A DNA stretch of 64,000 nt from Candidatus Undinarchaeota archaeon (GTDB lineage: Archaea > SpSt-1190 > JASMDC01). The stretch's first letter is position 1; every line of letters begins with the position of its first letter. The position numbers and the translations under genes are program-made. The notes beneath the pieces were generated by a model, which worked only from the letters and a program-made list of their open reading frames with translations, was not told the DNA's origin and made no database searches. The DNA is taken from NCBI GenBank assembly GCA_964519305.1, contig CAZFHY010000007.1, positions 64,001 through 128,000 on the forward strand, in the 5' to 3' direction. Shown piece by piece: positions 19,141 through 64,000 of this stretch.

Positions 19141-19154
19141 CGTTGTTCCCTCTG

Positions 19155-30818: not shown

Positions 30819-33800
30819 TCATTGCGACTGTCCGTCCCAACCTTGGGCAGTCTCTGTTCCACGTGCCTCACCCGTCATGTACCTATATCCATAGTAGGAT
30901 GACACTGCAGGCCTATCCGTGTAAGGACTGGGTGCGGTGGACGTGGAAGTGACGGGAGCTACCGGCGCGACCGTTCGTGGTGTGAGTTCCCTGAAGACGA
31001 CCCTGGCACCGAGCACTAGAACGATAAAGATGGCTAATCCGATGACGGCCAGACCGGGGATGTTCTTCCCGGTGATGAGATCCCACAGGAAGCTCTCCTG
31101 AATCGCCCTGAGGAGCTGGTTGCTCGAGCCGAATTTTATCGTCACGTGCCCTCCGGAAGTGGCGAGTTCGGGGAACGTCTCCGATGTTACCACGATGTCG
31201 ATATCAGCGGTCCCGGCGCTGGACAGGAACGTGAGAGGGAGGAGGAACGCATGCTTGCCATTCGGTTTAATGGTCGGTACCTGTACCTCGGTGAAACCAA
31301 GACGAGCATTGACTGTATTGATACGCACGAAGTAACTATCCGGTACATTGCCCAGGTTAGTGATCTGGACAGGGACGTCTATCACAGGTGTGTCCATCAC
31401 ATCGTAGCTGCCCATGACGTCGATGGAGACAGAGCACGTGCAATCATCGCTCCCCGCGCAGGATTCGCCGATAGCGGTATCGCACACACCGTTAGCGCAG
31501 AAGATGGGTGCACAATCCCTTGAACAGAAGCTGCATTCATGCGCAGCGCATATCCCGTCCCCGCAACCGGCCTTGCACAGCTCCTCATAGGCATCGCACA
31601 CCTTACCATCAAGACACCCACAGTCCTGGCAACAGTTATCCTCGTTCTCCGTGGGTCTATCACATACACTATCTCCGCACCACACGCCAACGCATCCTGT
31701 CGAATCGGCGTCGGTCCTGTGTGGATCACAGACGTGAAGAGGACCGTCGCATGCGCACCCAGGACCTGTACGGCAATCCTCGATAAGGGTATTGCACCTT
31801 TTGACGGTCGGACAGCCGTCCCTGCGATTGGGATCACGAGGACAATCTTCGTCAGTGTCCGGTACGCCATCGCCATCGATATCACGTCGGCATGTACCCT
31901 GAGAGCATGTGTGGAGCGGGCCATATGTGCTCGTGCACTCGGAATTCGCAGTGCAGGGAACGCAAAGGCCGCGTTCGCAGACCTGGCCTTGTTCCTGACA
32001 TACCTTGATATTGGTGACGACGCAACGCTCGCTCACGCATGAGAACTTCAGGACGAGTGATCCGAGGCACGCAGTGGGGCACTCTTCGTCCTTCAGGCAC
32101 GGGAATCCCTTTCGCTGCGGATCCGGATCTATTTGGTCCGGGATGTTGTCATCGTCCATATCGGACACGCATCCGCCTTCGTCCGCATGGTCGCTCCACG
32201 GATCGCAAACGCTTCCCTCAGAACACCTACAATCGGGACACCAGAGACAGTTCTCACCAGCATCCTTCCTGCACACGCCATCGATACATGTCTGGACACA
32301 CCGCTCCTCGATACATGTATGCCCAAGGCCGTAGTCGATGGTGCAGACAACATCCGAGTCACAGCCCGAGCATCCGCTCGTCGTGCATATGGTGCCATCC
32401 TTGCAGGTATAATCCACACCCTTCTTGCAGAGGAAGTCCTCGCATACGAACGGGACGAACACGTTGTCCTCGCACAGGTTCGGACAGTTATCGTTGTTCG
32501 TACAGTTGAGTACCCGGCAGGCTCCACTGACAGGTTCGCATTGCTTGCCTTGACCATACTGGGCCGCGCATGCCTCGGTCGATGTACAAGCCATGCACCC
32601 TTCCTTCTCGCAGACGAGATATGAATCAGAACATTCACGGTTACGTCTCTCGCAAGAACCGCCGATGCAGGCGTAACCGATATGCAAGGTCCCATCACAT
32701 TTGTTGTACCGGGAGCAGTCCCCATCGTTCAGGCATGGACCGCAGGAGCCTGCACGGCAGAAGAGCATTTCAGTTGAACAATCCCGAGTTCCTGCATCTA
32801 CGCAGGCACCATCAGTGCAATCCTTGAGCAGGGCGGTGTTATCGTCACATGATCCCGGGCACTTCAACGTGTCGATGCACACGCCTGTTAGGGAACACGA
32901 TCCGAGACCACCCTCGGTGCAACATGTAGCGTTCTCCGGTCCGCATCGCCATGAACCACCGACGCAACGAACGGATTCAGTGCATGGCCCAGTGCCACAC
33001 TTCGCGTAAGGAGGGATGCCCCCGAGCTTGTCGCCTAGACTGACGCATTGACCGTCACAGCAATAACCGGTCGAGTCCAAGGTGTCGCAGGGTGCACCTT
33101 CGGGTCCGCACGCATCCTTACACAGACCGTCAGCACAGAAGTGCAGGTCACAATCTGCTTGGGTGATGCAAGGACGAGCTGCTCTGCAGGTACCTGATGC
33201 ACAGATCCCTGAGGCGCACTGGCAGTCGAGAAGGCATGATCCGCTGTCAGGAACACCTCCCGCTACGGCACAGGCCTTCTCCACACAGCAGTCCGAAGCA
33301 CAGGTCTCCGGATTGAGACAGAACCCAGCGAGGTCCCGAAGACAGGTCCGCTTGCGGTTATTGCATTTTAGTCCTTGATCACATGCGCAATCATCCGTAC
33401 AGGAACCATCGAGACCGACGGATCCCTTGACGGTACACACTTCCTTCGATGCGCACCCTGACGCGCATTCAGCGTGGCCAGTGGCATTCGTGCCCAGCTC
33501 CCTCAGGCATGACCCATCAGTGCATTCGAGCCCGCTGATGCAGTCGTTGTCGATGATGCATTGCTGAGCTAGCGTTTGGTCACCGCGTTCCCTGCAGGTG
33601 CTTCCTTTGCAGACACCGGAACTGCACTGGTCGGCAGAGTCGCACTCTACTCCGACCTTTTTGAGACATTTACCTCCTGTACATCCCATTGTGAGGCTGC
33701 ACTGGCAGTCATTTGAGCAGGTCTCGTTGAGGGTGACCGTTTCCCTCGGTACGCATGTAGCGGTTGCGCAGCATGAGGTCGCACAGTCGTTATCGAGGGA

Positions 33801-36047
33801 GCATGAACCGCCGGTCTTTGCTAGACAGAGTCCGGACTCATCGGTTATGAACTCCTTGACGCAGGAGTGTCCCGTACCGCATTCGCAGGTCTCCCTGCAC
33901 GGGTCCCCTGACGTGACCGAATCCTTGGGTACGCACCTGGCGTTCGCGCAACATCCTGAAGCGCACTCGGTCGTGAACGTGCATGCCCGGCCAAGGCCGC
34001 TCCTGCACAGTCCTTCTGCACACGTTAGCCCACCTTCGCACTGGCATGTTCCACTGCATACGTCACCAAGGGCAACAGCCAGGGATCCAAGGCAAAGACC
34101 GTTAGCGCAACAGCCAGACGTACACTGCTCATCGTCTTGGCATGATGCCCCGTCTTCCCTTTTACAGATCCCGGGGTCCTTGCACGAGAGCGTCGACGCG
34201 CACTGGCAATCGGTCTCGCACGGTCCATCAAAGACCATTGTCGTACCACAGGCACCTCCACAACAGCGTCCGAGAGCCCCGTCATCAGTTATGCAGATTG
34301 CACCCGTGTTATCCGTGCACCATCCGCACTCGCTCGGTGTACCGCTACCTAGCCTGTCGATACATGTCGTCTGATATCGACAATCATCGGAGTCCGAACA
34401 ATCGTCGGAGCAGATCCCGTTCGTACACGGGTACGGGCCGCATGACTTTCCGTTCCCGCAAGAACCTCCGGAGCAAGTACCCCTGCTCCCGGGGCCATCG
34501 CAGCAGTAGCCGCCCTCGCTCGAACAGACCAAGTTGCTCCCGCACACGACCTTACCTGAGCACGAGCCTGAACCACACGTGTCGTCTGAGTTGAGAAGAT
34601 GATCGCCATTGTTGTCGGTCAGAGGGGTGGACCGGCACTCACCGTCACAACAGTAGCCAGTACCGGTCGAGACGTCGCAGCGTGCACCATCGACCTTGCA
34701 CGTGTCACAAACATCAAGGGAACCGTCAGCGTTAACGTCGATGCATGCATATGACGCACTACAGCCTGACGAGGATGTACAACCTTTCTTGCATGCCTTC
34801 TTCCCTGCTTCCAATGAGATGCATTTGAAACCGGACGCGCAGTCACCGTCCGTTATGCAGGACACACTGCATGAACCGGCCATGCAGATGTTCGGGTCGC
34901 ATGCATGTACCCCACTGTCTGCAGTGCACTCCCCTGTAGCATCGCATCCATAGAGGTTGTCGCCAGCACCGCAACACGGCTTGCCCTTGGACGCGCATTC
35001 CCAAGCCGGGCCTCCAGGGGCATCAGTGATGCATTCATATGCGGAGATGCACTGCCCGGAGCCACAACCATCCACGCCCGAGTCGAGGACATCGTTGCCG
35101 TTCACGTCGACGACTGATCCGGGGACTATAGCGCACTCATCACCGCAGCATCGTCCTGTACGGCCTTGCTCATCCTTGCATGTCGCGCCCGGATTGTCCT
35201 CGCATGATGAGCACACAAGGTCGGCACCATCAACGGTCGTAATGCAGTCAGCGTCGCCGGAAGGGTGACAGTCGCTTGCATCAGAGCATGCTCGTTCTAT
35301 GACGAGCTCGGGACCGATAGGGCTAGTGGTGAGCATGTTGACTCCGGTGAAGGGTGCTGAATCGACAGCGACACATTCACCACCCGCCGTTGAGCAAGGA
35401 AGGTCTGGTAGCGATGGCCAAGTGTAGTAATGCGTGGGTTTGAACGCCTCGACGTGGAAAAGGATGGTCAGCCATCCAGACCTGTGTGCGAACGCGACGG
35501 CATCCGATACATCACGTTCGATAAGACAACTATCTCCAGAACAGTCAGTTCCCGCGTCACCAAGGGAGTAGTCGTTGCACGCTTCACGGACGTTGGGGAT
35601 ATTGCATGATCCGAAGGAGCAGTAATAGAGCGTTACCTTACCTTCGGGAGAACAGATGCCATTCTCAGCTTCAGCACAGGCATGGTGGAGCTTGAGGACC
35701 GCAGAACTGAACGGAGTCTGACCAGATATCTGGAACGCGATAACCGCTCCATTGTTCAACGGCTCAAGAGGATCCTGGCAACAACCGACATCTTCGATCA
35801 TATCCTCCCTGCATGGCTTGTCATCCAGCTCACGACAGCATCCGCCAAGGGACTTGCCGGGGATACATCCTGCATGGCGATAGGTCTGGCGGACGGCAAC
35901 TCGAGCGAAATCGGCATCAATGTCGACAGCACCTTCCGTGCTTACCGACCCCGTGCACAACGGACCGATAGTGGCCCCTGAAGAGAGCACAAGAAGGAGG
36001 ATGAGCGCACAGGAACAGGCCCGTATCCTTCCCCTGGGCGCTCCCAT
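30819..36047 (-). CDS. Giant Cys-rich, C-terminally membrane-anchored surface protein (adhesin-like, ~1740 aa)
   Basis: Signal peptide; many C..D.DC / C.SGCC repeats; DxDxDG Ca-binding motifs (DMDDDNIPDQID, DIDGDGVPD); CGDGIC repeats; Ig-like domain; transmembrane helix GLAVIGLAIFIVLVLGA and cytoplasmic tail. Confidence 0.88.
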   Translation of the reverse strand: MGAPRGRIRACSCALILLLVLSSGATIGPLCTGSVSTEGAVDIDADFARVAVRQTYRHAGCIPGKSLGGCCRELDDKPCREDMIEDVGCCQDPLEPLNNGAVIAFQISGQTPFSSAVLKLHHACAEAENGICSPEGKVTLYYCSFGSCNIPNVREACNDYSLGDAGTDCSGDSCLIERDVSDAVAFAHRSGWLTILFHVEAFKPTHYYTWPSLPDLPCSTAGGECVAVDSAPFTGVNMLTTSPIGPELVIERACSDASDCHPSGDADCITTVDGADLVCSSCEDNPGATCKDEQGRTGRCCGDECAIVPGSVVDVNGNDVLDSGVDGCGSGQCISAYECITDAPGGPAWECASKGKPCCGAGDNLYGCDATGECTADSGVHACDPNICMAGSCSVSCITDGDCASGFKCISLEAGKKACKKGCTSSSGCSASYACIDVNADGSLDVCDTCKVDGARCDVSTGTGYCCDGECRSTPLTDNNGDHLLNSDDTCGSGSCSGKVVCGSNLVCSSEGGYCCDGPGSRGTCSGGSCGNGKSCGPYPCTNGICSDDCSDSDDCRYQTTCIDRLGSGTPSECGWCTDNTGAICITDDGALGRCCGGACGTTMVFDGPCETDCQCASTLSCKDPGICKREDGASCQDDEQCTSGCCANGLCLGSLAVALGDVCSGTCQCEGGLTCAEGLCRSGLGRACTFTTECASGCCANARCVPKDSVTSGDPCRETCECGTGHSCVKEFITDESGLCLAKTGGSCSLDNDCATSCCATATCVPRETVTLNETCSNDCQCSLTMGCTGGKCLKKVGVECDSADQCSSGVCKGSTCRERGDQTLAQQCIIDNDCISGLECTDGSCLRELGTNATGHAECASGCASKEVCTVKGSVGLDGSCTDDCACDQGLKCNNRKRTCLRDLAGFCLNPETCASDCCVEKACAVAGGVPDSGSCLLDCQCASGICASGTCRAARPCITQADCDLHFCADGLCKDACGPEGAPCDTLDSTGYCCDGQCVSLGDKLGGIPPYAKCGTGPCTESVRCVGGSWRCGPENATCCTEGGLGSCSLTGVCIDTLKCPGSCDDNTALLKDCTDGACVDAGTRDCSTEMLFCRAGSCGPCLNDGDCSRYNKCDGTLHIGYACIGGSCERRNRECSDSYLVCEKEGCMACTSTEACAAQYGQGKQCEPVSGACRVLNCTNNDNCPNLCEDNVFVPFVCEDFLCKKGVDYTCKDGTICTTSGCSGCDSDVVCTIDYGLGHTCIEERCVQTCIDGVCRKDAGENCLWCPDCRCSEGSVCDPWSDHADEGGCVSDMDDDNIPDQIDPDPQRKGFPCLKDEECPTACLGSLVLKFSCVSERCVVTNIKVCQEQGQVCERGLCVPCTANSECTSTYGPLHTCSQGTCRRDIDGDGVPDTDEDCPRDPNRRDGCPTVKRCNTLIEDCRTGPGCACDGPLHVCDPHRTDADSTGCVGVWCGDSVCDRPTENEDNCCQDCGCLDGKVCDAYEELCKAGCGDGICAAHECSFCSRDCAPIFCANGVCDTAIGESCAGSDDCTCSVSIDVMGSYDVMDTPVIDVPVQITNLGNVPDSYFVRINTVNARLGFTEVQVPTIKPNGKHAFLLPLTFLSSAGTADIDIVVTSETFPELATSGGHVTIKFGSSNQLLRAIQESFLWDLITGKNIPGLAVIGLAIFIVLVLGARVVFRELTPRTVAPVAPVTSTSTAPSPYTDRPAVSSYYGYRYMTGEARGTETAQGWDGQSQ

Positions 36048-36165
36048 CGCTATCAATCCACACTCTCTTCATCCTTGTTTAAATAACTTGGTAAGACATC
36101 ACCATTGGGCCAAGCCCGCCCCTGAGCGGGAAGCTTATTAAAGCTGCTCATGTCCCCAATTAATA

Positions 36166-38099: not shown

Positions 38100-39245
38100 T
38101 CATGGGTCCCGGTCGTCTTCGCTCCCGGCCTCGCCTTTAACTTCTCGTTCCATCCTCTCATGGTCCTCTTTCGTGATATCTAGAGACTTCCTGAGCGTCT
38201 CGAGCATCTTCCTCTCCTTCTTCGTGATAATGCCATCATCCCATGCTATCGAAAGCTCAGTGCGATATAGCTCGGCCTTGTCATCGTGATTCTTTAAAGA
38301 GGAAAGTCCGACTTTCGGGAGGAGCTTGTCGGTGAGGTTCTGGCTCACTGACCGGGCCGGGACAGAGAGCATTACGACGAATCCCGCGGAAACCAGGTTG
38401 GACAGGTGCATATCAGCGAACACTGTCGTTGAGACGACATCCTCCATGAGCTCCTGGACGACGAAGAACGCGATGGTGAGGATGCTCGTCATCATACCGT
38501 AGAGCACGCTCTTGCGGACGATGATATCAATATCGAACAGACGCTCCTTGACTATTCCGTACGCGATGAAACCGAACGAGATAGGCAATGCCATGAGCAC
38601 GGGATTGATACTGGGGGATGTGTTGAACATGAATCGATAGACCAACAGGGCGAACGATGTGATGAACGCAACGAACGAGGCGAGCACGAAGTACGCGGAG
38701 CGACGTCTAAGTTCGATGTCATCTCGCTGCCTGAACATACGAAAGAACGTCGAGAACAGCAGGGTAAGCATGATAGGGACGTAAATGAAGGAGAACAACC
38801 TCAGTGGTGAATCGAGACGAGGTGAGAACGCGCCGAACGAAGCATCTCCGCCCTGGACCACATCTCCTATGACCACATCGGGTGCAAGGACCATGGATAT
38901 GGCAGCAATGGTGGGAAGGATGTAGACAGCAAGGTATCTCCTGTGTTTGAGGACCACCCCCTTCTCCCAGAATGCGAACGAGAAGTGAAGGAACGCAGAG
39001 ACCGAAAAGACGTCCGCGATTAGGTACACACCGAACCACCGTTTCCAAGTGGAGAGTTCCCGGCTGCAGACGAGCATCGCGGCGGATAGGCTGATAAGGG
39101 CTGCCAGGAAGAGCGCGAGCACGAAGAGCCTGACATATCCCTCTTCCCGCTTCTTCTTCAGCAGGAACGCACCCAAGAGAGTGCAGACTATGAAAGGGAT
39201 GATGTAAATTATCGCCCGGGGATCGAACACGTATGCTGTCATCAT
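38100..39245 (-). CDS. HisKA-7TM-like multi-transmembrane sensor protein with C-terminal TerB-like helical domain, no kinase domain
   Basis: ~9 hydrophobic helices; YGIVKERLFDI motif; C-terminal AWDDGIITKKERKMLETLR. Confidence 0.7.
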   Translation of the reverse strand: MMTAYVFDPRAIIYIIPFIVCTLLGAFLLKKKREEGYVRLFVLALFLAALISLSAAMLVCSRELSTWKRWFGVYLIADVFSVSAFLHFSFAFWEKGVVLKHRRYLAVYILPTIAAISMVLAPDVVIGDVVQGGDASFGAFSPRLDSPLRLFSFIYVPIMLTLLFSTFFRMFRQRDDIELRRRSAYFVLASFVAFITSFALLVYRFMFNTSPSINPVLMALPISFGFIAYGIVKERLFDIDIIVRKSVLYGMMTSILTIAFFVVQELMEDVVSTTVFADMHLSNLVSAGFVVMLSVPARSVSQNLTDKLLPKVGLSSLKNHDDKAELYRTELSIAWDDGIITKKERKMLETLRKSLDITKEDHERMEREVKGEAGSEDDRDP

Positions 39246-39277: not shown

Positions 39278-40258
39278 TTACCTGTACCGTTCTACTGCGG
39301 ACAATAGAACCGCCTGGATGAGCTGCTGATAGTCCTTACCTAGCGTACTCCAAGCATCGTAGTACGAACCGCTCTGGTGAATGGCGGCCATGGAGTTGAG
39401 CTCGAGTATCCATGGATTGCCGTCATCATCAATTCTGAAGTCAACGCGAGCACAATCCCTGCACCCGAGCGCCTTAAAGGCAGCGACGGTGAGGTCCCGT
39501 ACTTTCCCGGTCAGCTCGTCGGACATACGTGCTGGGCACACGTGGCTTGCGACACGGTCACGCTTGGTCTCGAACGAGAGGATGCGTGACGTCCCTTTCA
39601 TGTTACCGAAGTCGATCTCGAGCACAGGGAGCGCCTTGGGAGGATCGTTACCGAGTACACCACAGTTGACCTCCATGCCGGAGATGAACCGCTCTACAAG
39701 GGCAGGTTGCTGGAACTCATCGATGATAGCAGCAACAGCCTTCCGTAGGCTCGTCTCGTCCTCGACGACCTGTATCCCGAAGCTCGTGGACTCCATCTTG
39801 GGCTTTACGATGAGCGGGAAGATGAGCCCCTCCGTCAACGTATCATCAGGTGTATTGAAGAGCTGGAACGCGGGGGTAGGTAATCCGGCGCTCCTGAGAA
39901 CTACCTTTGCCAGGTACTTGTCGAGCGCGATAGTGTGCGCTCTGGGTCCGGAGCAGACATATGGGATACCGGCCAGTTCGAGTATCGATGGTATGTGGGT
40001 GTACCTGCATTCGCCCTGGACGCCATAGGCGAGGTTGAACACCATGAGGTCAGCAGGATCATCAAGGGAGGAAAGGAGGTTCTCCAGACGAGGGATCAGG
40101 TCCACGTCACCTTCGAGCACCGTTACGTCGTGCCCGCCGGCGCTCAAGGCATTCTTGACCGCTTCGATATCCTCCTCTTTGTAGTACTCCTTGTTCTGCA
40201 TTCCCAGCTGGCGAAGCCGTCGTGCCTCGGGCGTATTTCGGACGATTGCGATGTGCAT
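39278..40258 (-). CDS. D-Ala-D-Ala-ligase-like ATP-grasp enzyme
   Basis: DKYLAK, PLIVKPKMESTSFGI, LVERFISG, ARVDFR and LELN motifs; ATG at 40258 after a GAGGTG RBS. Confidence 0.9.
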   Translation of the reverse strand: MHIAIVRNTPEARRLRQLGMQNKEYYKEEDIEAVKNALSAGGHDVTVLEGDVDLIPRLENLLSSLDDPADLMVFNLAYGVQGECRYTHIPSILELAGIPYVCSGPRAHTIALDKYLAKVVLRSAGLPTPAFQLFNTPDDTLTEGLIFPLIVKPKMESTSFGIQVVEDETSLRKAVAAIIDEFQQPALVERFISGMEVNCGVLGNDPPKALPVLEIDFGNMKGTSRILSFETKRDRVASHVCPARMSDELTGKVRDLTVAAFKALGCRDCARVDFRIDDDGNPWILELNSMAAIHQSGSYYDAWSTLGKDYQQLIQAVLLSAVERYR

Positions 40259-40274
40259 AGGGTTCACCTCAAGG

Positions 40275-41474
40275 TCAGTTCGTTCTTTCGTACGAAACAT
40301 ATGTAGCGAGCAATGTCGCGGTGAGCATGGAGCGCTGTATGAGCGAAGGCAAGTATAGACGTTCCTGCGGCGTGTGGTCGTCGAAGCCGATGGGGCCAAG
40401 ACCGTCCAGCGTGGGAACACCGGATGATCCGAACCAGCTCGAGTCCGCGGTGCCGGTACGACGTTCTTTCTGAACGTTCTGTTTTAGAGCTGCGGCCACG
40501 GACTGGATCCTATCGAGGAGGTAGCCCGTCCCTTCGTTCTCTGGCCAGGCTGGACGGAAGCTCGTGACCTTGAGCGAATTCTGGGCGCCGCTCACGGTCG
40601 GGATCGCACTGATCTGCTCCATGTCCTCCTTGATAGCTCTCTCGGATGCGGGATCCCAGAACCAGATGTCCACCAGGGCGGTCGCAGAGGATGGGACCGT
40701 GTTCCTGGCCTCACCTCCCCATGCTCGTCCCACGTTAAAGGCAGTTCCTGGATACTTCTTGTTAAGACCTTCAACCGCGATGATCTTGTGGGAGAGCTCT
40801 TCCAGAGCACTGGTCTTGAACGATTGGAGCAATCCTGCGTGAAAAGGTACTCCTTGTACATCCAGCTGGTAAGCGAGCTTGGCACGTCGCGAGACGACGA
40901 CCTCTCCGTTAGGGCCTCCGCACTCGAAGTAGAGGGCAAACTCAGTGTTCCGGGCCAAGGGTTTGAAGAGAGGACGTGATGTGGTCGCTGCACGTTCCTC
41001 GTCACTGTTCAGCACGACTGTGATGGCCAGCCCGTCCATGAGTCCCGCGGCCTTGAGAGATTCTAAGGCTGCGAGCATGACGACGATCCCACCTTTCATA
41101 TCGCTCGTACCGGGGCCGATCGCATACTCTCCATTTATCGTGAAGGCGGGAAGGCGAGTGTAGTCCGTGTAGGTTGTGTCGGTGTGCCCTCCGAGAACGA
41201 TCTGCTTACCGGCCATCCCGTTCGTAGCTACGAGATGGTCACCGAAACCACGGGCAGAATGACGTCTTACGGTCATCCCAAGGGCCTGAAGTCGCTGCTC
41301 GATGATCTCGTTTACCTTCTGAACACCTTCGACCATCTCGGACCCGCATGGTATATCGACGAGTCTCTTGAGCGTCTCGATATGACGTTGTTGGTCATTC
41401 TCGAGCGTTGTGACGAGCTTTCCTACTACCGATTGCGGAACGGTGATGATATCCTGTTCGGTCATGGACTTCAC
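40275..41474 (-). CDS. M20-family metallopeptidase (glutamate carboxypeptidase-like)
   Basis: GHTDT, GPGTSDMKGG, SDEE and DGLGP..DHTPQE motifs; overlaps the eam stop codon. Confidence 0.9.
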   Translation of the reverse strand: MKSMTEQDIITVPQSVVGKLVTTLENDQQRHIETLKRLVDIPCGSEMVEGVQKVNEIIEQRLQALGMTVRRHSARGFGDHLVATNGMAGKQIVLGGHTDTTYTDYTRLPAFTINGEYAIGPGTSDMKGGIVVMLAALESLKAAGLMDGLAITVVLNSDEERAATTSRPLFKPLARNTEFALYFECGGPNGEVVVSRRAKLAYQLDVQGVPFHAGLLQSFKTSALEELSHKIIAVEGLNKKYPGTAFNVGRAWGGEARNTVPSSATALVDIWFWDPASERAIKEDMEQISAIPTVSGAQNSLKVTSFRPAWPENEGTGYLLDRIQSVAAALKQNVQKERRTGTADSSWFGSSGVPTLDGLGPIGFDDHTPQERLYLPSLIQRSMLTATLLATYVSYERTN

Positions 41475-42790
41475 TCACGAATGTAATCCGGGTCACGCTT
41501 CTCATCATCGTAGTCCATAACAAGACCTTGCCACGAGCGGAACCTTGCCTTGCCGTTGGCGTTGATGTTCAACAGGTAGTTGGGCATTACGGGTGTCTTG
41601 CCCCTGCCCATGGGCAGCGTGCAGATGTAGGTGGGCACAGCGAGACCTGATGTGTAGTTACGCAGGTACTCCATGATGTTGTACCCGTCCTGAATGCTCG
41701 GCCTGAAATGCCGGATGCCCTCGAGCATCTTGCAGTTGAAGATGTAGTACGGTCTGACTTTGACCGTCAGGAGCTCCTGGCACAACTTCTTCATTACATG
41801 GCGGTCGGTGTTGATGCCCCGCAGGAGAACGCTCTGGTTCCCGAGCAGGATACCAGCACGAGTGAGCTTATCGCACGCCTCGGCGACCTCGTTGGTGATC
41901 TCTTTTGGATGGTTGTACTGTGTGTTGAGGTAGAGCGGATCGTGCGTGGAGAGCATCTCGCACAGGTCGTCGGTGACCCGCATGGGGAGCACACAAGGCA
42001 TCCGGCTCCCTAGACGCTTGATCTCAACGTGAGGGATGGCATCCAGTTCACCGAGGATCCAATCGAGCCTATCGTTCGTGAGAGCGAACGCGTCACCACC
42101 GGTGATGAGAACGTCCCTTATCTCTTCGTGCTCCTTGACGTAATCCAGGGCCATTGAGATGTCCTTCTTCGAATAGAGAAGGTTCTCGTGGCTTATGTGT
42201 CGACGCCTGAGACAGTGGCGACAGAACATCGCACAGGCGTTAGTGACGTTGATGATGAGCCGGTCAGGATAGAGTCGGGTTGTGAGCGGGGCCGGTGAGT
42301 TGTACAGGACGGTCTCGGGGTCCTTCTCGACGGTCGTATCCAGTACCTCATTCACTATCGGAACGCTCTGCATCCGTACGGGACACTTACGGTCCTTCCT
42401 ATCCATGAGACTGGCGTAGTATGGTGAGACGCCCCAGCGGTACATCTCTTCTACATCTTTGATATGGCCCTGTTCCTCCGTGGTGAGCTCGATGATACGG
42501 GCGAGCTGGTCCACGCTCCTTATGGTGTTGCGCAGATGCCATCGCCAGTCCTTCCAGTCATCGTTCGTCCCACCGAGCACATCGAGGATGAGCTTCTTGT
42601 TCTTCTCGTACTCGGCCGCGAGCTTTCTGCCGGTCGGGATCGAGTCCTTGACCGCCAGATAGTCGGCAATGGACTCCTTGTACGACTCACATCGTTCGAG
42701 GGCATACTTACGCTTCTCGGGAGTGATGTGGAGCATGGTCTTCTCAACGGGTACGAAAGTCGAATCGGAGGTATCGTCCTTTTTCACCAT
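41471..42790 (-). CDS. eam: KamA-family radical SAM aminomutase, most similar to glutamate 2,3-aminomutase
   Basis: CAMFCRHC cluster motif, SPYYASLM, LGNQSVLL, GKTP PLP lysine. Has the Eam-type N-terminal extension (KRKYALER...DYLAVKDSIPTG) and lacks the LAM C-terminal Zn-binding cysteines. Confidence 0.8.
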   Translation of the reverse strand: MVKKDDTSDSTFVPVEKTMLHITPEKRKYALERCESYKESIADYLAVKDSIPTGRKLAAEYEKNKKLILDVLGGTNDDWKDWRWHLRNTIRSVDQLARIIELTTEEQGHIKDVEEMYRWGVSPYYASLMDRKDRKCPVRMQSVPIVNEVLDTTVEKDPETVLYNSPAPLTTRLYPDRLIINVTNACAMFCRHCLRRRHISHENLLYSKKDISMALDYVKEHEEIRDVLITGGDAFALTNDRLDWILGELDAIPHVEIKRLGSRMPCVLPMRVTDDLCEMLSTHDPLYLNTQYNHPKEITNEVAEACDKLTRAGILLGNQSVLLRGINTDRHVMKKLCQELLTVKVRPYYIFNCKMLEGIRHFRPSIQDGYNIMEYLRNYTSGLAVPTYICTLPMGRGKTPVMPNYLLNINANGKARFRSWQGLVMDYDDEKRDPDYIRE

Positions 42791-42891
42791 CAGCGTTACA
42801 CCGTGCCGTTGGCCTGTGACTCAGGCCTGATGGGGACCTTGAGACATAGCGTGGTATAAAAGGTTGTCGTTGGTGCCCTGAGCACGGTGGC

Positions 42892-43677
42892 TCAGAAGTA
42901 GCGTTCTAGGTGCTCTCGGGACGTCACGGCGTCCTCGATGCCGTAACCGTCACGCATCTCGAGGTTAACGGCCCTGAGATGGGGGAGCGCCGCCACTTGG
43001 CGATAGACATCATCGGGAAGGGCGCCGGAGACCGGTTGATGGAGGTCCGTCGTTCCATCGTTGTCGTGCATGTGCACGTGGATGGTGTATTCTCCCAGAG
43101 CCTCGATGAACTGCTCGAAGGGAATGTTGTGGATTTGGGACGCGACGTAGGCATGTCCCACGTCCAGGCAGACGTATGGTTCGTACCCTTCGTCACGGAG
43201 GTCCTCGATCAGGCCACGCACTTCCCATGGGGCCGTGTACGAGGTGCCCTCACCATGGATCAACGGGACCTCGTTCTCGATAGCGATATCGATACCGCAT
43301 TCTTGGGCTGTGTCGAGTATCTCCCGGGCGCATGACAGGAAGTTCTCCCTCCTCTCGATGTAATCGACACCCTCTGGAGGCCTCCCCTCGACATGGAGCA
43401 CAGCCACCTCGGCGTTCCCGGCGTAGGCGTGGAGCCACGACTTAATCGCATCAGTGCTCATCCCACGAGTGAAGGGATCAGGGTCCGTCAGATGGATGCC
43501 ACGGAAGGGAAGATGGATCGAGTAGACCTCCCGATCGATGCCGTCAGGGAGGTGGTAGGGGATGACCTCGACATCGAATCCTTCGGTGTAGAGCGATTCG
43601 AGACCTGAGTCGAGGTCGAAGTCGATAGTGGATGAGGCGGCGTATCGAACACCAGATCGTTCATAGCCAGCTTCCAC
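42892..43677 (-). CDS. Sugar phosphate isomerase/epimerase (AP endonuclease 2 TIM barrel)
   Basis: SIHLPF, IAIEN, CLDVGHA and HVHMHDNDG..DLH motifs; TATAAAT ~25 nt upstream. Confidence 0.88.
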   Translation of the reverse strand: MEAGYERSGVRYAASSTIDFDLDSGLESLYTEGFDVEVIPYHLPDGIDREVYSIHLPFRGIHLTDPDPFTRGMSTDAIKSWLHAYAGNAEVAVLHVEGRPPEGVDYIERRENFLSCAREILDTAQECGIDIAIENEVPLIHGEGTSYTAPWEVRGLIEDLRDEGYEPYVCLDVGHAYVASQIHNIPFEQFIEALGEYTIHVHMHDNDGTTDLHQPVSGALPDDVYRQVAALPHLRAVNLEMRDGYGIEDAVTSREHLERYF

Positions 43678-43779: not shown

Positions 43780-45204
43780 ATGCCCATGACGCTCGACGTT
43801 GCCGTCATCAATCCTCCGCCACCCACACAGAACTGCATCTCCAAAGAGGGCAGGTGCGCGGGGAGGGGATTCCTGCCCCTCATCCATCTTACTCCGTTAT
43901 CGCTCCTCTATCCGGCAGCGGTCATCGAGGCCCAGGGGCATAATGTCAGCGTGCATGACGGCGTAGCCTCCGGACCGTTACCGATCGATGCTATCGATGC
44001 GGACCTCGTTCTCGTGAACATATCGCCCGCATCGTACACCATGGACATGGAGTTCGTCAAAACGGTGAAGGAACAGAGGAAGGATACTCTTGTCGCGGCC
44101 CTGGGCACGCTCGCCACATCAAGGCCGGACCGTATTCTGGCCGATGGTGCAGACATGGTGCTCCGCGGAGAGATCGAGTCGACCGTCGCCGAGGTCACAC
44201 GACGGCTCGTGAGCGGACGAAAGCTGGTTGGAGTGCCCGGCCTGTCCATCCGTTCCGGTGGTAGGATAGTGCACGGCGGTGATGCGGTGCGTCCGGACCT
44301 TGATGCCCTCCCCTACCCTGCACGACATCTCATCGAACGGGACAACTACCGGTTCCTCTTCACGGGTGACATAACCACTTCGATTCTCACTGGACGAGGT
44401 TGTCCGCACCGATGCACGTTCTGTGCCTCGAGCATCATCAACGGTACTCGGACGCGTGACAGGGACCCAAGGTCGATCGTCGAGGAGATCAGGTACGTGC
44501 ATGAACACGATGGTACGAACCACTTCATCCTGTATTCCGATACGTTCAATGCCTCACGAAGGTTCGTCCTCGATCTGTGCGATGAACTCCTACGCGAGGA
44601 CATGGACATCGAATGGGCCTGCAACAGCAGAGCTGATGGTCTTGATGACGAAGTACTGGAGCGAATGTCACGTGCGGGTTGCAGGCATGTAACGATCGGG
44701 GCCGAGTCAGGGTCCGATGAGATACTGAAGCGTGCGTGCAAGGGAGAGACCACGGCCATGGTCCATGATGCCGTAGAAGCGTGCTCACGTGCCGGTATCG
44801 ATGCGTTGGTGTACTTCATATTAGGTCTTCCCGGAGAGACACGTCAAACAGTACAGGAGACCCTGGACTTCGCAGCATCTCTGAGTACGGACTACGTCAT
44901 GTTCTCAACGGCGACACCGTACATCGGGACACCATTCGCGAAAGAGGTCGGCTTCGACAACGACGACCTCGATCTACAGCGTGACGAGGTCAATGCGATC
45001 GTGGACTCGGACGCCATCGGGATAACTCCCCAAGAGATCCAGGAAGCGGTCAAGGAGTCTTACATCAGGTTCTATATGAGACCGAACACCGTAGCGAACC
45101 ATGCATCACGCATAGTCCGAAGCCCGAAGATGCTCGGTACGACCGTCACAACAGCTGCGGGTATGGCGCGGTACATACTTGGTATGGACGTGTCCGATGA
45201 GTGA
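43780..45204 (+). CDS. Cobalamin-binding radical SAM protein
   Basis: N-terminal B12-binding region, LDALPYP, TGRGCPHRCTFC, GAESGS and FILGLPGET motifs. Confidence 0.92.
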   Translation: MPMTLDVAVINPPPPTQNCISKEGRCAGRGFLPLIHLTPLSLLYPAAVIEAQGHNVSVHDGVASGPLPIDAIDADLVLVNISPASYTMDMEFVKTVKEQRKDTLVAALGTLATSRPDRILADGADMVLRGEIESTVAEVTRRLVSGRKLVGVPGLSIRSGGRIVHGGDAVRPDLDALPYPARHLIERDNYRFLFTGDITTSILTGRGCPHRCTFCASSIINGTRTRDRDPRSIVEEIRYVHEHDGTNHFILYSDTFNASRRFVLDLCDELLREDMDIEWACNSRADGLDDEVLERMSRAGCRHVTIGAESGSDEILKRACKGETTAMVHDAVEACSRAGIDALVYFILGLPGETRQTVQETLDFAASLSTDYVMFSTATPYIGTPFAKEVGFDNDDLDLQRDEVNAIVDSDAIGITPQEIQEAVKESYIRFYMRPNTVANHASRIVRSPKMLGTTVTTAAGMARYILGMDVSDE

Positions 45205-62775: not shown

Positions 62776-64000
62776 CTAGACCCGGTCGGGCCGGTCCTGG
62801 AGAAGATCTACCATGTCGTAGACGACGCAATCCCAGGCGAGCGGTTTCGCGCCCCCGCCTTTGCCGTTCTCCGGATTGTAGTGCTCCCACCAGTCGTTCT
62901 CTTTCACAAGGTCGACGGTCTTATGTGCGACCTCCTTTGCGAGGTCCGTCCTTCCCTGGTTCTCAAGGCCTTTCATGACGAACCAGTTGACGTTCAGCCA
63001 GACATTCCCACGCCAGTAAGTGTCTGGATCGTAACTATCGTTGTCCATAGAGGTCGTGGATATGCCGTACTGTGCCCAGAACTCTTTGGTGTTCGTTAGA
63101 TGCTCGTCTATCATCTTTGAGTAGTCGAACTTCCTATCAAGGAGCATCGGGTAGAACATCGCGGCCGACTTAACAGGCGAGAGTGTTCCATCTGAAAGAA
63201 TGTCGCAGAACTTGTCACCATCGTACATCGTGTTGAAGATGGCGTCCGTTGTCTTTGCTGACTGCTTCTCGAGCCATGTAGCATCCCTTCCGATCTCTTT
63301 GCTCAGGCTAGCGAGGATCTTCACGTTCTTTGCGTAGAGCACGTTGAAGTCAACGGGCTTAACTTCGAAGCTACCGTTTGCCAGTATCTTCTTCTCGTTC
63401 CATCCCTGCTCCTGGCACTCCTTGAAGATGCGCATCTTGTGCTCTCCTATCTCTTCACGAGTACCTTCGGTCACACCGTAGGTCGAGTCCCACCTTTGTG
63501 AGTTGTCCCAGCCGCTCTCCCAGGAATGATAGATCGATAGAAGCTCGTCACCGTCCGGGTCCCTGACGTCCTTGAGGTGCTTGTAGTAGTTCTCCAACTG
63601 GGGGAGGACCTCTTTAAGGAACTCCTTGTCACCCGTGCGAGCGTAGATGCGTTCTACGGCCATAGCGATGATGGGGGGTTGGACCATGTCGGAATGATAG
63701 GGTGAGGACCAGTACTCGTCCACGAGGTCCTTGAAGCCTTCGGGTACCTCCTGTCCATCACCATTGAAGTAGTTCATGTGAGGGATGAACCCGTCAGCAC
63801 GCTGGTTCGCCAGCATGGACCGGACCTCTTCCTTGGCTACACCGGGCTCTCTTTCAGCAAGCACATAAGCATGGAAGCAGGAGTCCCAGAACCATTGCCG
63901 ACCGACATAGCCCTCGTGGTTCACACTGGGGGTCGTGAACGTGTGGCCATCGACGGTGACACGCTGCTCTGTGAGCAACCTGTATGCTGATTCCTTGACT
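62776..64000 (-). CDS. GH63/MGH1-like (trehalase-like) glycoside hydrolase, 5'-truncated by window
   Basis: QWFWDSCFHA, QPPIIA, WESGWDNS, YWRGNVW and EHYNP motifs; frame is open to the window edge. Confidence 0.88.
   Translation of the reverse strand, partial: VKESAYRLLTEQRVTVDGHTFTTPSVNHEGYVGRQWFWDSCFHAYVLAEREPGVAKEEVRSMLANQRADGFIPHMNYFNGDGQEVPEGFKDLVDEYWSSPYHSDMVQPPIIAMAVERIYARTGDKEFLKEVLPQLENYYKHLKDVRDPDGDELLSIYHSWESGWDNSQRWDSTYGVTEGTREEIGEHKMRIFKECQEQGWNEKKILANGSFEVKPVDFNVLYAKNVKILASLSKEIGRDATWLEKQSAKTTDAIFNTMYDGDKFCDILSDGTLSPVKSAAMFYPMLLDRKFDYSKMIDEHLTNTKEFWAQYGISTTSMDNDSYDPDTYWRGNVWLNVNWFVMKGLENQGRTDLAKEVAHKTVDLVKENDWWEHYNPENGKGGGAKPLAWDCVVYDMVDLLQDRPDRV

What the first reader, a model, noticed from the sequence alone, without database searches (positions are those of the whole stretch)
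39278..42790. Glutamate 2,3-aminomutase + M20 peptidase + ATP-grasp ligase: candidate new beta-glutamyl metabolite pathway
Seen: a tight three-gene operon (4-bp overlap, 16-bp gap). Established: Eam makes beta-glutamate, a known archaeal/bacterial osmolyte. ATP-grasp enzymes form amide bonds, M20 enzymes hydrolyse them, and archaea have no D-Ala-D-Ala peptidoglycan to explain a Ddl-like ligase. Inference: synthesis and turnover of a beta-glutamyl amide or dipeptide (for example beta-glutamine or a beta-Glu peptide) as a compatible solute, storage compound or protein/cofactor modification. MscS and a GH63 hydrolase in the window fit an osmolyte theme.
Basis: partly seen in the sequence, partly recalled or inferred. 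Interest (0 to 1): 0.7.

Follow-up and report, generated by a model that had tools for sequence, protein, structure and literature searches.

The report
Beta-glutamate ligase and hydrolase gene trio
A marine archaeon carries three tightly linked genes that recur together in unrelated microbes and probably make, join and cleave the unusual amino acid beta-glutamate, pointing to a small compound nobody has described.

Summary
Three co-directional genes on the minus strand, with a 4-bp overlap and a 16-bp gap, encode a KamA-family radical-SAM aminomutase, a carboxypeptidase-G2-like M20 hydrolase and a Ddl-fold ATP-grasp ligase.

- **Aminomutase:** it scores best, over its full length, on the glutamate 2,3-aminomutase model, but below the curated cut-off (577.5 vs 650 bits). 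It has Lys where lysine aminomutase has its substrate-binding Asp293.
- **M20:** it keeps all metal and catalytic residues.
- **Ligase:** it fails the Ddl cut-offs, and the genome has no Mur ligase.
- **Linkage:** the trio is a self-contained module. All 8 loci whose ligase is at least 49% identical carry the aminomutase and/or the active M20, in two gene orders. A more distant locus shows a third order. Flanking genes differ between loci.
- **Wider ligase family:** other clades pair with gamma-glutamyltranspeptidase, N-formylglutamate-amidohydrolase-like, class-I amidotransferase or a second KamA-like enzyme. Many are fused to an M20-like domain that has lost its metal ligands.

Best reading (about 0.55): the module makes and recycles a beta-glutamate-containing amide, probably a compatible solute. 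The product is unknown. I found no description in print. Earlier notes of this scan report sibling aminomutase-plus-ligase modules on other DNA.

The parts
41471..42790 (-). KamA-family radical-SAM/PLP aminomutase, glutamate 2,3-aminomutase-like (439 aa)
   Evidence: TIGR04368 577.5 bits over model positions 1-403 of 404 (cut-off 650); AblA 430.2; KamA family 313.8, above its cut-off of 199.2. Aligned to LAM 2A5H, it keeps C186/C190/C193, R195 and the PLP Lys K398. LAM Asp293 is K354 and LAM Asp330 is T391.
40275..41474 (-). M20 metallo-amidohydrolase, carboxypeptidase G2-like (399 aa), catalytically intact
   Evidence: Peptidase_M20 68.4 bits and M20_dimer 43 bits. NF004788 glutamate carboxypeptidase 212.6 bits (cut-off 349). 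The closest solved structure is CPG2 1CG2, E 4e-41. The motifs H(GGHTD), D(TSDMK), EE(SDEER), E(YFECG) and H(DDHTP) are all present.
39278..40258 (-). Ddl-fold ATP-grasp carboxylate-amine ligase (326 aa)
   Evidence: Dala_Dala_lig_C 125.1 bits. The Ddl models NF002378 (164.1 bits, cut-off 243) and TIGR01205 (156.6 bits, cut-off 245.65) are not reached. AlphaFold model pLDDT 91.9. The top Foldseek hits listed are Ddl or Ddl-type (VanA, D-Ala:D-Lac) ligases, TM 0.72-0.83 at 19-28% identity.
40264..40270 (-). GAGGTGA Shine-Dalgarno-like motif 5 nt upstream of the ligase ATG
   Evidence: Read directly from the sequence.
42855..42861 (-). TTTTATA, an archaeal TATA-box-like motif about 65 nt upstream of the aminomutase ATG; a possible operon promoter
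   Evidence: Read directly from the sequence. It was not tested further.
38100..39245 (-). 7TM membrane protein (HisKA_7TM domain, no kinase domain) 32 bp downstream of the ligase; possibly co-transcribed, and specific to this genus
   Evidence: PF16927 50.7 bits. The 32-bp gap has no long T-run. Homologues were found only in the same-genus loci L003 and L019.

Best explanation
This is a self-contained three-gene module that makes a beta-glutamate-containing amide and can take it apart again.

- Step 1 (inferred from homology and active-site residues): the radical-SAM/PLP aminomutase converts L-glutamate to beta-glutamate (3-aminoglutarate).
- Step 2 (inferred from fold and conserved ATP/Mg residues): the Ddl-fold ATP-grasp ligase activates a carboxylate as an acyl phosphate and joins it to an amine. 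Beta-glutamate is one of the two substrates. The glutamate-carboxypeptidase-like partner and the extra basic residues in the ligase lid loop favour an N-acyl or aminoacyl-beta-glutamate, that is, beta-Glu as the amine acceptor. A beta-glutamyl-X product is not excluded.
- Step 3 (inferred): the intact M20 hydrolase cleaves that amide or a close relative, for turnover, recycling or trimming.

The most likely role is a compatible solute in a marine organism. The archaeon probably acquired the module from bacteria.
For: 1. Enzyme identities are given under 'parts'.

2. Position 354 tracks substrate charge. It is Lys in the window protein and in 119 of 119 closest homologues. A bona fide arginine 2,3-aminomutase used as control (TIGR04468 639.9 bits, above its cut-off of 600) has Asp there.

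3. Linkage. Among 89 loci holding a ligase relative, 8 have a ligase at least 49% identical.
- 6 of these 8 carry the Eam-type gene. The other two (L020, L022) are contigs that begin inside the upstream M20 gene.
- 7 of the 8 carry an active-type M20. The eighth (L023) ends inside the ligase gene.
- L003 and L019 are the same genus as the window.
- Three gene orders occur: Eam-M20-Lig (window, L021), Eam-Lig-M20 (L024, L037) and Lig-Eam-M20 (L090).
- Genes flanking the trio differ between loci.
- 12 contig lengths coincide between the closest ligase hits and the closest aminomutase hits.

4. All five stand-alone M20s examined in Eam-type loci (window, L021, L024, L037, L090) keep all six metal or catalytic residues. 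All nine fused M20-like domains examined have lost most of them.

5. The ligase tree follows context. 8 of 9 Eam-context ligases form one group (SH-aLRT 91, quick tree).

6. Eam-type ligases have clade-specific residues: T9, D30, H294 and R/K at 233 (the Ddl lid Tyr position). R85, Y86, H88, K232 and R275 are invariant in all 87 rows.

7. Other clades of the same ligase family pair with other glutamyl-amide enzymes: GGT in 32 of 89 loci, FGase-like in 18 of 89, class-I GATase in 22 of 89. Some pair with a second KamA-like enzyme that has Arg at the 354 position.

8. One locus (L028) fuses the ligase to a KamA-like radical-SAM domain.

9. Beta-amino acids are established archaeal osmolytes (passages read in PMC1224877), and eam is listed among osmoprotectant genes under Na+ riboswitches (passage in PMC9337991).
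Against: - The aminomutase and all ligase-linked relatives tested (4 of 4: window, L023, L037, L090; also P0123 and P0133) score 563-592 bits, below the curated Eam cut-off of 650.
- The residue at LAM Asp330 is Thr. I recall Asn for the characterised C. difficile enzyme and could not check it. Glutamate is therefore probable, not shown.
- No product, substrate or expression data exist. No RNA run was listed.
- A synthase and a hydrolase in one operon could be futile. The M20 may instead act on a precursor or a different amide.
- No transporter or salt-responsive element is conserved with the trio.
- The MscS and GH63-like genes are distant.
- Within the archaeal phylum only 2 of 17 genomes, both of one genus, carry the ligase. 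It is therefore not a general archaeal trait.
Confidence: 0.55

Rival explanations
1. Macromolecule or cofactor modification. The ligase attaches beta-glutamate (or attaches something to it) on a protein C-terminus, carrier protein, cofactor tail or envelope glycan, and the M20 removes it. This would resemble EpmB/EpmA beta-lysylation of EF-P, RimK glutamylation of S6, or LysX/LysK on LysW.
For: KamA-family aminomutases are known to feed a protein modification (EpmB; that family scores 203 bits here). M20 enzymes release products from carriers (LysK-type models give weak hits). A membrane 7TM gene follows the ligase in this genus. Earlier scan notes describe aminomutase plus ATP-grasp pairs in envelope or spore contexts (untested).
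Against: The ligase has the compact three-domain Ddl fold, and every listed structural neighbour is a small-molecule Ddl-type ligase. No small carrier-protein gene or conserved target gene accompanies the trio, and the flanks differ between loci. The 7TM gene is absent from the other Eam-type loci.
Confidence: 0.15
2. The aminomutase has a substrate other than free L-glutamate. Candidates are glutamine, 2-aminoadipate, D-glutamate or a glutamyl amide made first by the ligase. The module would then build a different beta-amino acid compound.
For: It scores below the curated Eam cut-off, as do all linked relatives. The residue at LAM Asp330 is Thr in 119 of 119 relatives, not the Asn I recall for the characterised Eam.
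Against: It matches the Eam model over the full length, including the N-terminal 50 positions. It scores about 150 bits above any other KamA subfamily model. Lys at the Asp293 position fits an acidic side chain.
Confidence: 0.15
3. Catabolic or salvage route. The M20 frees glutamate or beta-glutamate from imported N-acyl or peptide compounds, and the aminomutase runs in reverse to feed glutamate into central metabolism.
For: The aminomutase reaction is reversible. A preprint passage states that bacterial Eam serves glutamate fermentation. CPG2-like enzymes are typically catabolic.
Against: An ATP-consuming ligase has no role in such a route, yet it is the best-conserved partner. No transporter is conserved with the trio.
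Confidence: 0.08
4. The ligase is an ordinary D-Ala-D-Ala ligase and the clustering is incidental.
For: Ddl models and Ddl structures are its best-named matches.
Against: All Ddl cut-offs are missed. The Ddl lid Tyr is replaced. The genome has no Mur_ligase_M domain, against 12 of 14 control genomes that do. The linkage to the aminomutase and M20 is conserved.
Confidence: 0.02

Closest known systems
Glutamate 2,3-aminomutase (Eam) of Clostridioides difficile (Ruzicka and Frey 2007; reference seen in the list, content recalled) and NCBIfam TIGR04368
   Same: Radical-SAM CxxxCxxC motif, PLP lysine, full-length match to the family model, and Lys at the LAM Asp293 position.
   Different: It scores 577.5 bits, below the cut-off of 650. 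It has Thr, not the recalled Asn, at the LAM Asp330 position. Here it sits in a conserved trio with a ligase and a hydrolase.
Methanogen lysine and glutamate 2,3-aminomutases for osmolytes (Tunckanat et al. 2022, Biochemistry 61:1077; only the reference entry was seen; the paper is not held)
   Same: An archaeal KamA-family enzyme proposed to supply a beta-amino acid for salt tolerance.
   Different: I could not compare sequences. The control genomes of M. jannaschii and M. acetivorans match TIGR04368 only below the cut-off. No ligase or M20 partner is known to me for those enzymes.
[quoted passage not shown]
   Same: An aminomutase product is capped by a second enzyme to give a zwitterionic or neutral beta-amino acid solute.
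   Different: The capping enzyme here is an ATP-grasp ligase, not a GNAT or GS. A hydrolase is built into the operon. The substrate side chain is acidic, not basic.
D-alanine-D-alanine ligase (Ddl)
   Same: Three-domain ATP-grasp fold (TM about 0.8). The Arg/Asp/Glu/Asn catalytic and Mg residues align (R271, D273, E286, N288) and the lid Lys is kept.
   Different: Identity is 19-28%, below the family cut-offs. The N-terminal 70 residues do not align by sequence. There is a two-residue insertion carrying the invariant R85-Y86. The lid Tyr is replaced by Arg or Lys. The genome has no peptidoglycan machinery.
Carboxypeptidase G2 (glutamate carboxypeptidase, PDB 1CG2)
   Same: It is the best solved relative (E 4e-41), and all metal ligands and the Glu-Glu pair are kept.
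   Different: It is below the NF004788 cut-off (212.6 vs 349 bits). The substrate is unknown. It is encoded between an aminomutase and a ligase.
Carnosine synthase (ATP-grasp) with carnosinases CNDP1/2 and PepV (M20); glutathionylspermidine synthetase/amidase; the NAGGN osmolyte cluster with its peptidase (all recalled, not tested)
   Same: An ATP-grasp ligase makes an amide involving a beta- or unusual amino acid, and a dedicated hydrolase cleaves the same bond. In some cases both are in one operon or one protein.
   Different: There is no sequence orthology. The precursor here is made in situ by a radical-SAM aminomutase.

Membership tests
Glutamate 2,3-aminomutase (TIGR04368 equivalog) | Score at or above the curated cut-off (650 bits) | tested here: not met
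   577.5 bits. Linked relatives score 563.5-591.5, and the next clade 605-632.
Glutamate 2,3-aminomutase (TIGR04368 equivalog) | Best-scoring KamA subfamily, matched over the full length | tested here: met
   Model positions 1-403 of 404. The next family, AblA, scores 430.2 bits.
Glutamate 2,3-aminomutase | Basic residue (Lys) in place of LAM Asp293 | tested here: met
   K354. 119 of 119 homologues have Lys. The arginine aminomutase control has Asp.
Glutamate 2,3-aminomutase | Asn in place of LAM Asp330 (recalled from Ruzicka and Frey 2007) | tested here: inconclusive
   T391 here and in 119 of 119 homologues. It is non-acidic, but not the recalled residue. I had no characterised Eam sequence to compare.
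Glutamate 2,3-aminomutase | Converts L-glutamate to beta-glutamate | not testable with these tools
   This needs an anaerobic enzyme assay.
KamA family radical SAM (TIGR00238) | Curated cut-off, CxxxCxxC motif and PLP lysine | tested here: met
   313.8 bits against 199.2. C186/C190/C193 and K398 are present. It is the only such gene above the cut-off in the genome.
Lysine 2,3-aminomutase (AblA/KamA) | Asp293 and Asp330 binding the lysine epsilon-amine; curated cut-off of 525.4 bits | tested here: not met
   K354 and T391. 430.2 bits.
D-Ala-D-Ala ligase | Curated family cut-offs | tested here: not met
   NF002378 164.1 vs 243 bits; TIGR01205 156.6 vs 245.65 bits.
D-Ala-D-Ala ligase | Ddl three-domain ATP-grasp fold with ATP/Mg residues | tested here: met
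   The top Foldseek hits listed are Ddl-type ligases, TM 0.72-0.83. R271, D273, E286, N288 and K232 align.
D-Ala-D-Ala ligase | Lid-loop Lys-Tyr pair (E. coli DdlB K215/Y216, numbering recalled) | tested here: not met
   The Lys is kept (K232). The Tyr position is R233. Across the 9 Eam-context ligases it is R in 4, K in 4 and F in 1.
D-Ala-D-Ala ligase | Works with Mur ligases in a peptidoglycan pathway | tested here: not met
   There are 0 Mur_ligase_M matches in the 99.83%-complete genome. The same search matched in 12 of 14 control genomes.
M20 peptidase / carboxypeptidase G2-like | Pfam M20 and dimerisation domains; two-zinc ligand set plus catalytic Glu | tested here: met
   PF01546 68.4 bits and PF07687 43 bits. 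H, D, EE, E and H are all aligned to CPG2. The CPG2 residue numbers are recalled.
Glutamate carboxypeptidase subfamily NF004788 | Curated cut-off of 349 bits | tested here: not met
   212.6 bits.
AblA/AblB-type beta-amino-acid osmolyte operon | GNAT acetyltransferase next to the aminomutase | tested here: not met
   No acetyltransferase domain appears in the cluster or its neighbours.

The most novel reading that the evidence does not exclude
The trio makes a previously unknown compatible solute: a dipeptide-like amide with beta-glutamate at its core, for example an aminoacyl- or glutamyl-beta-glutamate. The built-in M20 hydrolase lets the pool be released quickly.

The module has spread by horizontal transfer among marine and saline bacteria and into one large-genome archaeal genus.

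It would be one branch of a large, uncharacterised radiation of Ddl-fold ligases devoted to glutamyl-amide metabolism. In that radiation each ligase clade is paired with its own amide-cleaving or amide-transferring partner, and many carry a degenerate M20 domain.
Probability: 0.35. Interest if true: 0.75.

Novelty: new variant of a known kind. Interest (0 to 1): 0.6.

Why it matters
Beta-glutamate is a known osmolyte, but no enzyme is known that ligates it through an ATP-grasp mechanism. I found no natural beta-glutamate dipeptide in the literature I could search.

If the reading holds, it would have three consequences:
- It would add a new class of compatible solute and a compact three-gene route to beta-amino-acid amides.
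- It would assign a function to a widespread group of proteins now annotated as 'D-alanine-D-alanine ligase' or 'ATP-grasp domain-containing protein'. That group numbers 814 clusters at E <= 1e-20.
- It would explain what a Ddl look-alike does in an organism without peptidoglycan.

The degenerate M20 domain fused to most family members is also an untested example of a pseudo-enzyme partner.

Tried and rejected
- **Literature.** 'glutamate 2 3-aminomutase' as a phrase, and with 'Eam', found 0 papers. 'ATP-grasp' + 'beta-glutamate' found 0. 'aminomutase' + 'ATP-grasp' + 'glutamate' found 0. 'aminomutase' + 'ATP-grasp' found 3, none relevant by title or abstract. 'beta-glutamate' + 'ligase' found 13, of which 11 were listed and none was relevant by title or abstract. 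'Asp293' + 'Asp330' + 'aminomutase' found 0.
- **Papers not held.** These were Ruzicka and Frey 2007, Tunckanat et al. 2022 and Iyer et al. 2009 on ATP-grasp amidoligases. Any of them may bear on novelty or on the specificity residues.
- **Search for a characterised Eam sequence.** A tblastn of the plasmid collection gave only lysine or arginine aminomutases and unnamed KamA proteins. The best hit proved to be an arginine aminomutase and was used as a control.
- **Eam in the genomes with fused ligases.** 0 of 5 have a match near the cut-off; the best scores were 67-81 bits.
- **Expression.** No RNA holder was listed. The 8 DNA runs, from 2 marine or seawater studies, may be the source of the assembly.
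- **The 7TM gene.** I tested whether the 7TM gene after the ligase is related to the 7TM_transglut proteins found beside distant ligases. It shows no similarity (BLASTP E 2.0) and only HisKA_7TM in Pfam.
- **Earlier notes.** Look-ups by place and by sequence returned nothing.
- **Tree.** The careful tree search did not finish. The quick tree is reported instead.
- **Complex prediction.** I sent no complex-prediction job because I do not claim that these proteins bind.


Full report
**What is there**

Three minus-strand genes lie head to tail.
- A 439-aa aminomutase at 41471-42790.
- A 399-aa M20 hydrolase at 40275-41474. Its GTG start overlaps the aminomutase stop by 4 bp. An ATG 9 nt further on is an alternative start.
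- A 326-aa ATP-grasp ligase at 39278-40258. The mechanical ORF extends to 40420, but the ATG at 40258 sits 16 bp after the M20 stop and 5 nt after a GAGGTGA.

A TTTTATA lies about 65 nt upstream of the aminomutase ATG. A 7TM membrane gene follows the ligase after 32 bp with no long T-run. Transcription may therefore continue into it, but that gene is found only in same-genus loci.

**The aminomutase**

It passes the KamA-family cut-off (313.8 vs 199.2 bits). It scores best, over model positions 1-403 of 404, on the glutamate 2,3-aminomutase equivalog, with 577.5 bits. That is below the curated cut-off of 650 and well above AblA (430.2), arginine aminomutase (373.4) and EpmB (203.2).

Aligned to the only solved relative, lysine 2,3-aminomutase 2A5H, it keeps the CxxxCxxC cysteines, the carboxylate-binding Arg and the PLP Lys. 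LAM Asp293 is Lys354 and LAM Asp330 is Thr391. The roles of the LAM residues are recalled.

All 119 closest database homologues share Lys and Thr at these positions. An actinomycete protein that passes the arginine aminomutase cut-off has Asp at position 354, so this position tracks the charge of the substrate side chain.

I recall that the characterised C. difficile enzyme has Lys and Asn. I could obtain neither that paper nor a characterised Eam sequence. An acidic substrate, most simply L-glutamate, is therefore probable but not shown.

It is the only KamA-family gene above the cut-off in the genome.

**The hydrolase**

Its best solved relative is carboxypeptidase G2 (E 4e-41). The aligned His, Asp, Glu-Glu, Glu and His of the di-zinc site are all present. 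It is below the curated cut-off of the glutamate carboxypeptidase subfamily (212.6 vs 349 bits).

**The ligase**

- It has a clear Ddl C-terminal domain (125.1 bits) but misses every Ddl cut-off.
- By sequence it aligns to Ddl structures only from residue 72 onward.
- A confident model (pLDDT 91.9) finds Ddl-type ligases as its listed structural neighbours (TM 0.72-0.83, 19-28% identity).
- The catalytic Arg/Asp and the Mg-binding Glu/Asn align.
- The Lys of the Ddl lid loop is kept. The neighbouring Tyr is Arg here, and Arg or Lys in 8 of 9 Eam-context ligases.
- A two-residue insertion carries an invariant Arg85-Tyr86.
- The genome, 99.83% complete, has no Mur-ligase domain, while 12 of 14 control genomes do. 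Its only other Ddl-domain match is weak (31.3 bits). This is not a cell-wall Ddl.

**Is the trio a unit?**

I collected 89 loci holding a ligase relative: 9 from reference genomes and the best 80 of 497 confirmed metagenome matches.

Eight loci have a ligase at least 49% identical. L003 and L019 are the same genus as the window.
- Six of the eight carry an Eam-type gene (69-95% identical). The other two contigs begin inside the upstream M20 gene.
- Seven of the eight carry an active-type M20 (39-91% identical). The eighth contig ends inside the ligase gene.

A ninth locus, L090, has a 45% ligase, a 58% Eam-type gene and a 38% M20.

Three gene orders occur: Eam-M20-Lig, Eam-Lig-M20 and Lig-Eam-M20. 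Genes outside the trio differ from locus to locus.

Every ligase-linked aminomutase I scored falls at 563-592 bits on the Eam model. Unlinked relatives at 57-65% identity score 605-632. The linked enzymes are thus a distinct sub-clade.

**The wider ligase family**

The remaining 80 loci hold ligases 42-48% identical. Most are fused to a C-terminal M20-like domain.

In all nine fusions I examined, that domain has lost most metal ligands. All five stand-alone M20s of Eam-type loci keep them. Two Eam-type loci (L024, L037) have both the degenerate fused domain and an intact separate M20.

Partners sort by ligase clade in a quick maximum-likelihood tree of 87 rows. Partial ligases under 900 nt, such as L023, L011 and L074, were left out (counts; domains).
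- Gamma-glutamyltranspeptidase (32 of 89 loci) with an N-formylglutamate-amidohydrolase-family gene (18 of 89).
- A class-I glutamine amidotransferase directly upstream (22 of 89).
- A second, distant KamA-like radical-SAM gene (5 of 89) with a 7TM_transglut membrane protein (8 of 89) and GGT.

That second KamA-like enzyme has Arg at the position of Lys354. One protein (L028) fuses the ligase to such a domain.

R85, Y86, H88, K232 and R275 are invariant in all 87 ligases. T9, D30 and H294 mark the Eam-context clade.

The common theme is an ATP-dependent amide ligase paired with an enzyme that cleaves or transfers glutamyl-type amides. This is my inference, not a tested result.

**Organism and origin**

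The window has archaeal markers: an eRF1-family gene and geranylgeranyl reductase. The 94%-identical locus is titled a Candidatus Undinarchaeales MAG. In the 17-genome phylum only the two genomes of this genus carry the ligase.

All other relatives with a named source are bacterial. I infer acquisition from bacteria. Base composition gives no sign that it was recent.

**Mechanism proposed, and its limits**

Glutamate is converted to beta-glutamate. The ligase joins beta-glutamate to a second small molecule through an acyl phosphate. The M20 cleaves the amide.

The glutamate-carboxypeptidase likeness of the M20, and the added basic residues in the ligase lid, make me favour beta-glutamate as the amine acceptor, giving an N-acyl or aminoacyl-beta-glutamate. 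The reverse polarity and beta-glutamine remain open.

A compatible-solute role fits three things: the marine source records (possibly the assembly's own samples), the known use of beta-amino acids by archaea (PMC1224877, passages), and the listing of eam among osmoprotectant genes under Na+ riboswitches (PMC9337991, passage). Nothing in the locus shows salt control.

**Novelty**

My searches of the held library found no paper linking an aminomutase or beta-glutamate to an ATP-grasp ligase. Three relevant papers could not be read.

Earlier notes of this scan report sibling modules on other DNA:
- A nine-gene operon with KamA enzymes, ATP-grasp ligases, M20 and GGT.
- Beta-lysine plus Ddl-like ligase trios in Omnitrophota.
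- Eam with YheC/D ligases in spore formers.

They are unchecked leads. My own loci with KamA-like, GGT and ligase genes agree with the first of them. The enzymes belong to known superfamilies, so I rate this a new variant of a known kind.

Noticed in passing
whole genome G000 (window = contig 7, 64001-128000): The genome is 3.63 Mb (99.83% complete, 4.29% contamination), and its one congener is about 3.8 Mb. The other 15 genomes of the phylum are 0.6-1.2 Mb. The near-identical public locus is titled Candidatus Undinarchaeales. A genome three to six times larger than its phylum's norm deserves a check of its classification and of its gene gain.
   Followed up: no
window 1853-8143 (+), 8113-14562 (+), 16360-19176 (-), 19158-22793 (-), 30822-36056 (-): Five very long ORFs (2097, 2150, 939, 1212 and 1745 aa) have no Pfam match at E <= 1e-4.
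   Followed up: no
L004, L005, L007-L010, L043, L050, L061, L098 and others: Bacterial proteins of about 715-810 aa fuse the Ddl-like ligase to an M20-like domain that has lost its metal ligands. They are often followed by gamma-glutamyltranspeptidase and an FGase-family gene. This looks like a separate, uncharacterised glutamyl-amide system.
   Followed up: partly
L044:1857-5084 and, by ORF size only, L032, L033, L035, L045, L056, L073: The amidotransferase-linked ligase fusions sit near arginine decarboxylase, agmatinase and deoxyhypusine-synthase-like genes. These were annotated only in L044; elsewhere the match rests on similar ORF sizes. This hints at a link to polyamines.
   Followed up: partly
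L028:6848-9577: A single 909-aa protein fuses the Ddl-like ligase to a divergent KamA-like radical-SAM domain.
   Followed up: partly
L066:3440-4318, L084:2593-3456: Stand-alone 7TM_transglut membrane proteins lie between GGT and the ligase. The same module, fused to an inactive transglutaminase, is RloB of the P. aeruginosa rlo operon, which has an ATP-grasp gene and a hypo-osmotic stress phenotype (passages read in PMC11957051).
   Followed up: partly
window 42892-43677 (-) and 43780-45204 (+): A xylose-isomerase-like TIM-barrel gene lies 101 bp upstream of the aminomutase on the same strand. In the congener locus L003 it matches as two ORFs. A B12-binding radical-SAM gene (HpnJ-like, 219 bits, below its cut-off) is divergent from it. 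Both were found only in same-genus loci.
   Followed up: partly
window 25977-27086 (+) and 62779-63999 (-): An MscS-type channel and a mannosylglycerate-hydrolase-like GH63 gene (PF22422, 251 bits) are present. The latter hints that the organism handles a glycoside solute.
   Followed up: no
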